A program made the translations under genes and the position numbers. This document shows, one piece after another, positions 13,613 to 14,729 of a DNA stretch of 14,729 nt; position 1 is the stretch's first letter, and the number at the start of each line of letters is the position of its first letter. The notes below the pieces were generated by a model. That model was not told where the DNA came from and ran no database searches. It was given only the letters and a program-made list of their open reading frames with translations. The DNA is from a virus. The DNA is taken from IMG/VR virus record IMGVR_UViG_3300012227_000062; one strand, 5' to 3'.

Positions 13613-13963
13613 ATGGACATAGCGGCTGTGCACGGTTTTGCGGACGACCCGACCAAGGTGGGGCTTCTAATTGACCCTCTGGCCACGAACCCGCCCGTCA
13701 CGATCGCTTCCTTGCTCGAGTTGACGGACGAGGCGGTCGTGGTGGGAACCCGCATGCCGGACGACATCTTTCGTACGACGTTCGACCGGTTCATGGGGAT
13801 CGCCGTCGACAACGGTAGGCTCTGTCATCAAGTCATCCCCGCAAGCGAGCTCGCGCGCATCGAGCGCTTCGCGGCGGCGGGAGCGTACGTGCCGAAGCCG
13901 GCCGATCCTCCTTCGCCCGCGGCGCCCGAAGAGCCGTTCGATCCAGACAGCAGCATGAGCTGA
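13613..13963 (+). CDS. Hypothetical protein, 116 aa, with a Pro-rich disordered C-terminal tail
   Basis: Same frame as MVP and starts 9 nt after its stop. Composition is protein-like. The tail is 'PKPADPPSPAAPEEPFDPDSSMS'. Confidence 0.5.
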   Translation: MDIAAVHGFADDPTKVGLLIDPLATNPPVTIASLLELTDEAVVVGTRMPDDIFRTTFDRFMGIAVDNGRLCHQVIPASELARIERFAAAGAYVPKPADPPSPAAPEEPFDPDSSMS

Positions 13964-13968
13964 TCTCA

Positions 13969-14397
13969 ATGGCGAAGCTTTCCGAAGTCAAAGTCCACGT
14001 GCGCTCGGTGATCGGCTTTGTAAAAGAGGCCGTTCCGGGTCGAGTCGATGTGGCGATCAGCTCGACGCCCCACGTTCCCATTCGAGCTTTCAGGTTCATC
14101 GTCTGCGAAAGCTGCTTTATGCTCTTTGACATCTACGGCATTTACGTGGCCGGTGTGTCGGTGCTTCTGGCCGATGATCCGATTCCGGCGCGCGCGTTTT
14201 CCGAAGGACGAGCGCCCACCTATGCGCCGCCGTTGACCAAGGTGGGCGACATTTTCGTGGTGATGGTGCGCAACATCACGGCGGCGCCGGCAGACTTTCG
14301 CGCGTGGATGGTGGTCGCGGGCGAAGTGCCCAATGAAGGTCCGTGGAAAATCCGAGTTCCGAGCTCCGGCTTGCCCGATCTCCGATCCCTTGGCTAG
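13969..14397 (+). CDS. Hypothetical protein, 142 aa
   Basis: ATG 5 nt after the previous stop. Third-position GC is high. The opposite-strand ORFs here are Arg/Ser-rich junk. Confidence 0.5.
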   Translation: MAKLSEVKVHVRSVIGFVKEAVPGRVDVAISSTPHVPIRAFRFIVCESCFMLFDIYGIYVAGVSVLLADDPIPARAFSEGRAPTYAPPLTKVGDIFVVMVRNITAAPADFRAWMVVAGEVPNEGPWKIRVPSSGLPDLRSLG

Positions 14398-14447
14398 GCC
14401 GTTGGCAGAAGAATGACGGGTGCCGTGGTATCTTCGCTTCGCTCTCG

Positions 14448-14729
14448 ATGCCGGCCGTCACGAACACCCGCCGCTTCACCGAGAGCTGCGAGCAGGCCCG
14501 CAAGGCGGCCGTTGCAGGGGATGCGGCGCGGGTGCAGCGCGCGATCGGTGAAGCGTGGCGCCTGCTCGAGGAGCTCCGCGTAGAACTGAGGGGGCGCGGC
14601 GAACTCGGTCAGCTCGACGAACTCAGGGAAGAGCTGCGACGCACCGTCAAATCTTGTCAGAGCCATTCGGAGATCAACCATGGCGACGAAACAACCCCTG
14701 CGCGTGATTCATGGCAAGAAAACGCGGAC
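14448..14729 (+). CDS. Hypothetical protein, 3'-partial; the ORF runs off the window end
   Basis: ATG at 14448. The frame is open to 14729 with high GC3 and a coiled-coil-like sequence (EELRVELRGRGELGQLDELREELRR). A competing SD+ATG (GGAGATCAACCATGG, ATG at 14680) in another frame may mark the next gene. Confidence 0.35.
   Translation, partial: MPAVTNTRRFTESCEQARKAAVAGDAARVQRAIGEAWRLLEELRVELRGRGELGQLDELREELRRTVKSCQSHSEINHGDETTPARDSWQENAD

What the first reader, a model, noticed from the sequence alone, without database searches (positions are those of the whole stretch)
13613..14729. Tightly coupled small ORFs downstream of the MVP gene may be vault accessory or cargo proteins
Eukaryotic vaults carry vPARP, TEP1 and vault RNA, and vPARP docks through a C-terminal interaction domain. 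Here two small ORFs follow MVP at 9-nt and 5-nt spacing, consistent with co-translation. The first ends in a Pro-rich disordered tail, which is the usual way cargo is targeted to protein compartments such as encapsulins. A further ORF starts at 14448. None has a recognisable family.
Basis: inference. Interest (0 to 1): 0.6.

Follow-up and report, generated by a model that had tools for sequence, protein, structure and literature searches.

The report
Small phage genes beside a vault-protein gene
The three small ORFs after the vault-protein (MVP) gene are real genes in a variable accessory region of a large phage, but comparison with about 120 other MVP loci shows that none is a general vault partner, and only the first could be a lineage-specific one.

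Summary
ORF1 (13613-13963), ORF2 (13969-14397) and ORF3 (14448 to the window end) follow MVP (11051-13603) with gaps of 9 and 5 nt. All three are under purifying selection (dN/dS 0.06-0.33). None matches Pfam, PHROGs, NCBIfam, PADLOC or PDB.

The setting is a large phage, not a bacterium. Relatives carry RecA, ThyX, Cpn10 and Tad5, and one relative is a 182-kb IMG/VR viral contig.

The vault accessory or cargo reading is mostly not supported.
- Profile models of ORF1 and ORF2 hit none of 113 other non-redundant MVP loci.
- ORF1 belongs to a small family of 17 cluster representatives: an acidic ~95-aa domain, a Pro-rich linker and a conserved C-terminal FDPDxxM/DIDDMMG tip.
- ORF1 lies directly behind MVP in 10 of 14 distinct loci, all within one syntenic phage lineage.
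- It persists intact, tip included, in 4 loci without an adjacent MVP. One of these (L013) has a precise MVP-sized deletion in the window's closest relative.
- ORF2 is a β-sandwich protein known from only four sequences, and MVP-bearing relatives often lack it.
- ORF3 travels with the downstream Tad5-like anti-Thoeris gene, not with MVP.

Most likely these are independent accessory genes co-transcribed with MVP. ORF1 as an optional, clade-specific MVP client remains possible (about 0.2).

The parts
10959..11041 (+). Conserved leader upstream of MVP, probably holding the promoter and 5' UTR of the rightward transcript. In relative L013 this same sequence abuts ORF1 directly.
   Evidence: blastn: L013 1477-1559 matches window 10959-11041 at 87%. 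L007, L008 and L012 align from window 10989 onward. Junction alignment.
11051..13603 (+). Major vault protein homologue (850 aa). It behaves as a facultative gene cassette in this phage lineage.
   Evidence: Pfam MVP_shoulder 1.8e-29 and Vault_3 9.7e-11. PDB rat/human MVP E=2.5e-15 over residues 481-778. Precisely absent in L013.
13613..13888 (+). ORF1 N-terminal acidic domain (residues 1-92), the conserved core of a family of 17 cluster representatives.
   Evidence: Alignments A1 and A5. dN/dS 0.18-0.27. pI 4.3-5.4 across the family. Only a low-confidence AF2 model, pLDDT 54.
13889..13936 (+). ORF1 Pro-rich linker (residues 93-108). Its length varies from 0 to about 45 aa across the family. 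DNA homology to the nearest relative L013 stops exactly here, which marks a recombination breakpoint.
   Evidence: Alignment A5. The blastn match between L013 and the window ends at 13889.
13937..13957 (+). ORF1 C-terminal short linear motif FDPDSSM (family consensus [FLVI]-D-[PILV]-D-x-x-[MLF] at or near the C-terminus).
   Evidence: Present in 13 of 17 family members, including those from MVP-less loci.
13969..14397 (+). ORF2: a 142-aa predicted β-sandwich protein that is a sporadic, lineage-restricted accessory gene.
14448..14729 (+). ORF3: a small helical protein (about 78 aa conserved). The frame runs off the window end. It is conserved upstream of the Tad5-like gene.
   Evidence: dN/dS 0.06-0.13 in the + frame against 0.53-0.64 antisense. 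Homologues in L004/5, L007, L008, L010, L079 and L082. Called as a 78-aa gene in L082.
14681..14729 (+). First 16 codons (MATKQPLRVIHGKKTR) of a Tad5-like (type I Thoeris inhibitor) gene. It overlaps the ORF3 frame.
   Evidence: Read directly and compared with MKRQALQVIAGSKRNRR at L008 9586-10107, which matches Pfam Tad5 at 3e-33.

Best explanation
The window is a whole 14.7-kb metagenomic contig from a large, GC-rich tailed phage or a phage-like element. MVP, ORF1, ORF2 and ORF3 sit in a recombination-prone accessory region flanked by counter-defence-type genes. A Tad2-like gene and an SF2 helicase lie upstream on the minus strand, and a Tad5-like gene lies downstream.

The four genes are probably co-transcribed rightwards from the conserved leader at 10959-11041 (inferred). 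Their gaps are short enough for translational coupling.

Each small ORF is an independent accessory gene rather than a dedicated vault component.
- ORF1 is the stable resident of the locus. It has an acidic ~95-aa domain that carries a conserved C-terminal peptide (FDPDxxM) on a flexible Pro-rich spacer of variable length. I infer that it acts as a tethered-peptide adaptor or inhibitor, and that the terminal peptide docks onto a partner present whether or not MVP is encoded. That partner would be a host protein or a conserved phage protein.
- The MVP cassette lies just upstream of ORF1 in most members of the lineage and has been lost or gained several times.
- ORF2 is a small β-sandwich protein that arrived, together with the window's ORF1 tail, as a recombinant module.
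- ORF3 is the upstream partner of the Tad5-like gene.

Shown here: the coding status of the ORFs, their family limits, the presence/absence patterns and the breakpoints. Inferred: co-transcription, docking by the peptide and the identity of the receptor.
For: Phage setting. The window's upstream genes are syntenic with loci that carry RecA, ThyX, Cpn10, an SNF2 helicase and Tad5, and with the 182-kb IMG/VR contig UViG_3300037483_001670. MVP homologues occur in 207 IMG/VR contigs, many of 100-500 kb, and in megaphages LR756500/1/3.

MVP does not need ORF1 or ORF2. HMMs of both families hit none of the 113 other non-redundant MVP loci. Other MVP clades have different recurrent downstream genes: an SPFH/Band_7 protein of about 640 aa, a ~100-aa family and a ~160-aa family.

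ORF1 does not need an adjacent MVP.
- L013 (ORF1 91% identical) shows a clean 2.56-kb MVP-sized indel at a GAG microhomology.
- L004-6/L087, L081 and L085/86 have ORF1 without an adjacent MVP.
- MVP-positive and MVP-negative loci interleave on the ORF1 tree.
- The C-terminal motif is intact in all four MVP-less lineages.
- dN/dS between the window and MVP-less L004 is 0.27.

A second protein with the tail. In MVP-less L004 an unrelated small Zn-ribbon protein ends with the same Pro-rich stretch plus FDVDEFM.

Mosaicism.
- Homology between the window and L013 stops at the ORF1 domain/linker boundary.
- The first 8 codons of ORF2 are shared with an unrelated 63-aa gene in L007.
- The helicase and Tad2-like module at roughly 8779-10990 is absent from relatives.

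ORF2 is absent from MVP-positive L007, L008 and L082. ORF3 always sits next to the Tad5-like gene, including in MVP-less L004/5.
Against: Whenever MVP is present in this lineage it is immediately upstream of ORF1 (10 of 10 loci; from a 1-nt overlap to a 13-nt gap). The pairing persists at 43-46% MVP identity (L082, L083). That is what a functional pair would look like.

ORF1's layout of domain, flexible linker and terminal peptide is the layout of encapsulin cargo.

Three of the four MVP-less ORF1 loci are short contigs (2.4-5.4 kb). For the 182-kb contig, absence of MVP rests on motif-based scans only. An MVP elsewhere in those genomes is therefore not excluded.

No receptor for the ORF1 tail has been identified, and no fold is assigned to ORF1.
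Confidence: 0.6

Rival explanations
1. ORF1 is a clade-specific client of the phage vault-like shell, either cargo or an assembly/adaptor factor. Its C-terminal FDPDxxM peptide, held on a flexible Pro-rich tether, docks to the inner face of the MVP, as encapsulin cargo-loading peptides do. The MVP-less loci would be recent losses, or genomes with MVP encoded elsewhere.
For: MVP is directly upstream of ORF1 in 10 of 14 distinct ORF1 loci, with spacing from a 1-nt overlap to 13 nt. The pair is retained down to 43-46% MVP identity. ORF1-linked MVPs form one clade in an NJ tree. The layout of conserved terminal motif plus variable-length linker is cargo-like.
Against: Four ORF1 lineages without an adjacent MVP keep an intact gene and motif, and MVP-positive and MVP-negative loci interleave on the ORF1 tree. 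A second protein bearing the tail motif occurs in the MVP-less phage L004. 113 other MVP loci have no ORF1. The adjacency is explained by inherited synteny within one phage lineage, because the same flanking genes are present. There are two tail variants (FDPD and DIDDMMG), and neither tracks MVP presence.
Confidence: 0.2
2. ORF1 is an acidic counter-defence protein, such as a DNA mimic or an inhibitor of a host immune or repair factor. It acts independently of MVP, and its terminal peptide mimics a host protein-interaction tip, as the acidic SSB C-terminal tip does.
For: The family is consistently acidic (pI 4.3-5.4, net charge -4 to -12). It lies in a region with Tad2-like, Tad5-like, RadC and DUF4942 genes. 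It is independent of MVP. The terminal motif is acidic and hydrophobic.
Against: There is no homology to any known anti-defence protein or to SSB. The model confidence is too low to recognise a fold. Acidity and neighbourhood are weak indicators. This is a more specific version of the best explanation rather than a true alternative.
Confidence: 0.12
3. ORF2, alone or together with ORF1, is a structural accessory of the vault-like particle, for example a β-sandwich decoration or plug protein.
Confidence: 0.05

Closest known systems
Encapsulin cargo proteins with C-terminal cargo-loading peptides
   Same: ORF1 has a small folded domain, a flexible Pro-rich linker of variable length and a short conserved terminal peptide. 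In most loci it is encoded next to a shell-forming protein gene.
   Different: The shell here is MVP, not an HK97-fold encapsulin. The co-occurrence is not obligate in either direction (4 of 14 ORF1 loci lack an adjacent MVP, and 113 MVP loci lack ORF1). The motif (FDPDxxM) is unrelated to encapsulin loading peptides (from my own knowledge). No docking has been shown.
Eukaryotic vault minor components (vPARP with its INT domain, TEP1, vault RNA)
   Same: Only the idea of proteins carried inside an MVP shell.
   Different: ORF1-3 show no sequence similarity to vPARP or TEP1 (no Pfam or PDB hits). There is no Rfam hit, vault RNA included, anywhere in the window. The 2023 preprint on phage MVPs likewise found no TEP1 or vPARP in its phage genomes (10.1101/2023.11.10.566534). 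The INT domain is a folded domain of about 160 aa, not a short peptide (from my own knowledge).
Phage-encoded MVP homologues (Santos et al., bioRxiv 2023, 10.1101/2023.11.10.566534) and bacterial MVP homologues (Sokolskyi, bioRxiv 2019, 10.1101/872010)
   Same: The window's MVP is another phage-borne MVP. As that preprint reported for its two gut phages, gene content around MVP differs between phages.
   Different: This is a GC-rich environmental lineage, 42-52% identical to other phage MVPs found here. The survey here is larger (207 IMG/VR contigs) and adds presence/absence polymorphism of the MVP cassette.
Variable accessory ('moron' or anti-defence) islands of phage genomes
   Same: Gene-sized indels between close relatives, recombination breakpoints at gene boundaries, lineage-restricted ORFans and neighbouring Tad2-like and Tad5-like genes.
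   Different: No counter-defence activity is shown for MVP or for ORF1-3. Calling this an island rests on comparative genomics only.

Membership tests
Eukaryotic vault accessory components (vPARP / TEP1 / vault RNA) | Sequence homology to vPARP (PARP, VIT/VWA, INT domains) or to TEP1 (TROVE, NACHT, WD40) | tested here: not met
   No Pfam, NCBIfam or PDB-sequence hit for ORF1, ORF2 or ORF3.
Eukaryotic vault accessory components (vPARP / TEP1 / vault RNA) | A vault RNA gene in the locus | tested here: not met
   The Rfam gathering-threshold scan of the whole window gave 0 matches.
Shell cargo with terminal targeting peptide (encapsulin-type logic) | A short conserved terminal peptide separated from the folded domain by a flexible linker | tested here: met
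   Alignment A5: the FDPDxxM/DIDDMMG tip is present in 13 of 17 members, after a Pro-rich linker of 0 to about 45 aa.
Shell cargo with terminal targeting peptide (encapsulin-type logic) | The cargo gene co-occurs with the shell gene, and the cargo is lost or decays when the shell is lost | tested here: not met
   4 of 14 distinct ORF1 loci lack an adjacent MVP yet keep an intact ORF1 and motif. 113 MVP loci lack ORF1. Caveat: three of the MVP-less contigs are short.
Shell cargo with terminal targeting peptide (encapsulin-type logic) | Physical docking of the peptide to the shell protein | not testable with these tools
   No multimer prediction or experiment was available.
Phage variable-region accessory genes (morons, counter-defence islands) | Presence/absence polymorphism among close relatives, with breakpoints at gene borders | tested here: met
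   MVP-sized indel in L013. ORF2 is present in some MVP-positive relatives and absent or replaced in others. The helicase and Tad2-like module is unique to the window. Breakpoints lie at ORF1 codon 92 and at ORF2 codon 8.
Phage variable-region accessory genes (morons, counter-defence islands) | Narrow taxonomic distribution with no conserved domain | tested here: met
   ORF1: 11 representatives among 1.84 billion. ORF2: 4 clusters among 5.8 billion.
Phage variable-region accessory genes (morons, counter-defence islands) | Demonstrated counter-defence or host-modulating activity | not testable with these tools
   Only neighbourhood evidence (Tad2-like 1.5e-10; Tad5 3e-33 in L008) and the acidity of ORF1.
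SSB-like proteins with an acidic C-terminal tip | An OB-fold ssDNA-binding domain | tested here: inconclusive

The most novel reading that the evidence does not exclude
ORF1 is the first identified client of a viral or prokaryotic vault-like compartment. Its FDPDxxM peptide, on a Pro-rich tether, would load the acidic ORF1 domain into MVP shells built during infection by this phage clade. The same peptide on a second protein (seen in L004) would mark a small 'vault cargo' regulon.
Probability: 0.15. Interest if true: 0.8.

Novelty: new member of a known kind. Interest (0 to 1): 0.3.

Why it matters
The function of vaults is a long-standing open question, and non-eukaryotic MVPs have been studied only in silico. 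A genuine genetically linked partner would give a handle on what these shells do.

The comparison here removes most of that hope for ORF2 and ORF3. It narrows the question to one testable candidate: ORF1 and its terminal peptide.

It also shows that MVP is a facultative cassette, widespread in large phages (207 IMG/VR contigs). In this lineage it sits among counter-defence-type genes. That places phage MVPs among infection-time accessory functions rather than core bacterial cell biology.

Tried and rejected
- Pfam, PHROGs, PADLOC and NCBIfam scans of ORF1-3 found nothing usable. The weak ORF3 hits (FliS 0.01, a spanin 0.025, a T4SS effector 0.056) are all far below the cut-offs, and I rejected them.
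- PDB profile searches for ORF1 and ORF2 gave only chance-level hits.
- tblastn and HMM searches for ORF1-3 in three genome contigs MVP loci, in the IMG/VR MVP loci fetched, and in 57 metagenome MVP loci found hits only in the window's own lineage.
- The search for related loci with the 17-sequence ORF1 alignment failed because no stretch was conserved enough. Scans with the tail-less members P0018 and P0020 found nothing in IMG/VR.
- I tried to prove that the 182-kb relative lacks MVP. It was absent from three motif-based scans, but the motif is not universal (L083 has VKFMCDHL) and one scan kept only the best 80 of 207 hits. This is suggestive only.
- I rejected the 'Tad2-like' ORF 10339-11367(-) as called. 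Its first ~110 residues are the antisense shadow of MVP, and the real gene probably starts near 10992.
- I considered an ORF3-Tad5 frameshift fusion and rejected it, because the frame offset differs between the window (+2) and L008 (+1).
- I first guessed that the 155-166-aa family downstream of MVP in L031, L033 and L070 was a macro domain. Pfam gave no hit, so I make no such claim.

Full report
OBSERVATION

The window encodes an 850-aa MVP homologue at 11051-13603. It matches Pfam MVP_shoulder at 1.8e-29 and Vault_3 at 9.7e-11, and rat and human MVP structures at E=2.5e-15 over residues 481-778. Three ORFs follow it:
- ORF1, 13613-13963 (116 aa), after a 9-nt gap;
- ORF2, 13969-14397 (142 aa), after a 5-nt gap;
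- ORF3, opening at the ATG at 14448 and running off the window end.

The DNA is 62% GC and carries many spurious ORFs over 100 aa, so I tested whether these ORFs code.
- GC3 is 0.79 for ORF1 and 0.71 for ORF2, against 0.81 for MVP.
- Nei-Gojobori dN/dS against homologues is 0.18-0.27 for ORF1, 0.31-0.33 for ORF2 and 0.06-0.13 for ORF3. The antisense ORF at the ORF3 position gives 0.53-0.64.
- ORF1 and ORF2 are stored as predicted proteins in the protein collection, with JGI, ENA and Logan listed as sources, and come from a contig of exactly 14,729 bp. The window is therefore a whole metagenomic contig.

No + strand promoter-like or terminator-like site separates the genes. None of the three ORFs matches Pfam, PHROGs, PADLOC, NCBIfam or any PDB sequence.

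WHAT THE ELEMENT IS

The upstream genes include:
- a RadC-like JAB protein;
- a DUF4942 protein;
- an ice-binding-like protein;
- an SF2 helicase on the minus strand;
- a Tad2-like (DUF2829) gene on the minus strand.

The last 49 nt of the window begin a homologue of a gene that matches Pfam Tad5 (type I Thoeris inhibitor) at 3e-33 in relative L008.

Loci that share the window's gene order carry RecA, ThyX, Cpn10 and an SNF2 helicase. One of them is a 182-kb IMG/VR viral contig.

MVP homologues occur in 207 IMG/VR contigs, many of 100-500 kb. They also occur at 42% identity in megaphages LR756500/1/3. Phage MVPs have been described in a 2023 preprint, which found no TEP1 or vPARP in its phage genomes and noted that gene neighbours differ between phages (10.1101/2023.11.10.566534).

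The setting is therefore a large phage, not a bacterial chromosome.

ORF1

Word-indexed and exhaustive HMM searches recover a small family of 17 cluster representatives. All members share an acidic N-terminal domain of about 95 aa (pI 4.3-5.4). Thirteen of the 17 continue with a Pro-rich linker of very variable length. They end in a conserved peptide, FDPDxxM or [VL]D[IV]DDMMG. The window's version is FDPDSSM-S.

Genomic context was recovered for 14 distinct ORF1 loci.
- In ten, MVP lies immediately upstream, with spacing from a 1-nt overlap to a 13-nt gap. These are the window, L007, L008/9, L010/11, L012/23, L022, L062, L079, L082 and L083. In L082 and L083 the MVP is only 43-46% identical to the window's.
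- In four, there is no adjacent MVP. These are L004-6/L087 (the 182-kb phage), L013, L081 and L085/86.

L013 is the decisive case. Its ORF1 is the window's closest relative (91% identical over the domain). L013 1477-1559 aligns to window 10959-11041, and L013 1556-1844 aligns to window 13601-13889. The whole MVP cassette (ribosome-binding site, ORF and stop) is therefore cleanly missing at a GAG microhomology, and ORF1 now sits directly behind the shared leader.

On an ORF1 tree, MVP-positive and MVP-negative loci interleave, which implies several independent losses or gains. The terminal motif is intact in all MVP-less lineages. dN/dS between the window and MVP-less L004 is 0.27.

A regex scan for the motif at ORF ends in these loci found only the ORF1 homologues plus one other protein. 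That protein is an uncalled small Zn-ribbon gene in MVP-less L004 (8910-9155), which ends PAPAPEPFDVDEFM. GC3 supports its frame. Its homologues elsewhere, including window 8668-8778, lack the tail. This suggests a portable docking peptide whose receptor is not MVP. It is a single case.

The converse test also fails. I collected 123 non-redundant MVP loci with at least 400 nt downstream, from GTDB genomes, IMG/VR and JGI metagenomes. Profile HMMs of the ORF1 and ORF2 families hit only the ten loci of this lineage, and the other 113 have neither. The ORF1-linked MVPs form one small clade, 6 of 118 tips, in an NJ tree with no bootstrap support.

Other MVP clades have their own recurrent downstream genes:
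- a ~640-aa SPFH/Band_7 protein (Pfam 4.5e-28), in 5 loci;
- a ~100-aa family, in 11 loci;
- a 155-166-aa family, in 4 loci.

There is therefore no universal MVP partner. The MVP-ORF1 adjacency is inherited synteny within one phage lineage, because the same flanking genes are present.

ORF2

The first search found only the query itself among 5.8 billion clusters. A three-sequence profile raised this to four clusters. Wherever context is known, ORF2 lies after ORF1. Except in the window, a 128-aa Cys-rich gene lies between them (L010/11, L062, L079/80).

MVP-positive relatives L008 and L082 lack ORF2. L007 instead has an unrelated 63-aa gene that shares only the first eight codons, MAKLSEIK.

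ORF3

ORF3 is strongly constrained and helical. It is conserved directly upstream of the Tad5-like gene in L007, L008 and L010, and in MVP-less L004/5. Homologues also occur in L079 and L082, where no Tad5-like gene is visible in the recovered sequence. In L082 it is called as a 78-aa gene. It belongs with the Tad5-like gene, not with MVP.

MOSAICISM

- DNA homology between the window and L013 stops at 13889, exactly the ORF1 domain/linker boundary. The window's tail plus ORF2 is therefore a recombinant module.
- The helicase and Tad2-like block (about 8779-10990) is unique to the window, lying between two conserved segments.
- Together with the MVP indel and the shared first codons of ORF2, this marks a recombination-prone accessory region.

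MECHANISM

The best-supported reading (0.6) has four parts.
- MVP, ORF1, ORF2 and ORF3 are co-transcribed accessory genes of a large phage (co-transcription is inferred).
- ORF1 is the stable resident of the locus. It presents a conserved terminal peptide on a flexible tether to a partner that exists independently of MVP (inferred).
- MVP is a facultative cassette upstream of ORF1.
- ORF2 and ORF3 are unrelated to MVP.

The rivals are:
- ORF1 is a clade-specific MVP client or cargo (0.2). The tight, long-lived adjacency and the cargo-like layout favour it. Mutual dispensability and the second tail-bearing protein in an MVP-less phage count against it.
- ORF1 is an acidic counter-defence protein (0.12). 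This is a more specific form of the best explanation.
- ORF2 is a particle accessory (0.05).

COMPARISON WITH KNOWN SYSTEMS

ORF1 resembles encapsulin cargo in layout but fails the co-occurrence criterion. None of the ORFs resembles vPARP or TEP1, and no Rfam family, vault RNA included, is found in the window.

NOVELTY AND VERDICT

These are new, uncharacterised members of the familiar class of lineage-restricted phage accessory genes. Its interpretation fails its own synteny test for ORF2 and ORF3, and survives only as a minority hypothesis for ORF1.

Interest is 0.3. The most novel reading not excluded is ORF1 as the first vault cargo outside eukaryotes, with probability about 0.15 and interest 0.8 if true.

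Noticed in passing
window 11042-13600 versus L013 1556-1559: The whole MVP gene (ribosome-binding site, ORF and stop) is a clean presence/absence polymorphism between the window and its closest relative. The junction sits at a GAG microhomology. MVP therefore behaves as a facultative cassette in this phage lineage.
   Followed up: yes
window 8779-10990 (minus strand): A module of an SF2 helicase (ResIII/Helicase_C, 8793-10076) plus a Tad2-like/DUF2829 gene (about 10339-10992) is inserted between two segments conserved in relatives L007, L008, L012 and L013. Those relatives have other content there or none. The first ~110 residues of the listed ORF 10339-11367(-) are only the antisense shadow of MVP.
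   Followed up: partly
L004 8910-9155 (+), MVP-less 182-kb IMG/VR phage: An uncalled small Zn-ribbon gene ends with the same Pro-rich stretch plus FDVDEFM tail as the ORF1 family. Its homologues (window 8668-8778; L007, L008, L012, L013, L085) lack the tail. This hints at a portable docking peptide with a receptor other than MVP.
   Followed up: partly
window 13969-13992 versus L007 10790-10813: The first eight codons of ORF2 (MAKLSEVK/MAKLSEIK) are shared with an unrelated 63-aa gene in L007. This marks a recombination junction at the gene start. A second junction lies at ORF1 codon 92 (window 13889).
   Followed up: partly
window 14448-14729 and L008 9351-9872 / 9586-10107: The ORF3 frame has no stop before the start of the Tad5-like gene, and in relatives it stays open for about 290 nt into that gene. 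The frame offset differs between loci (+2 in the window, +1 in L008), so this is an overlap rather than a conserved frameshift fusion. In L082 ORF3 is a discrete 78-aa gene.
   Followed up: partly
L020, L021, L040, L041, L042 (17-77 nt after MVP); L016-L019, L037, L039, L045, L047, L069, L071, L073; L031-L033, L070: Other phage MVP clades have their own recurrent downstream neighbours. These are a ~640-aa membrane-anchored SPFH/Band_7 protein (Pfam 4.5e-28), a ~100-aa family with a W-x-DV-x-PGD-x-V motif, and a 155-166-aa family with no Pfam hit. Any of these could be a better candidate MVP partner in its own clade.
   Followed up: partly
IMG/VR and INPHARED LR756500/1/3: MVP homologues are encoded by at least 207 IMG/VR viral contigs, many of 100-500 kb, and by the 462-735-kb megaphages. 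That is far more than the two gut phages reported in the 2023 preprint.
   Followed up: partly
L007 10404-10787, L010 587-973, L012 4976 onward, L013 1973-2341, L062, L079 2076-2462: A ~128-aa Cys-rich (Zn-ribbon-like) gene is translationally coupled to the 3' end of ORF1 in most relatives, with a 1-nt overlap. It is missing from the window and from L008. It is ORF1's more frequent downstream neighbour than ORF2.
   Followed up: no
window 1194-1631, 2395-3219, 7793-8650: A RadC-like JAB protein (2.6e-29), a DUF4942 protein (9.1e-35) and an ice-binding-like protein (3.6e-71) are encoded upstream in the same orientation. In the Riflebacteria MAG locus L003, a RadC gene directly follows MVP.
   Followed up: no
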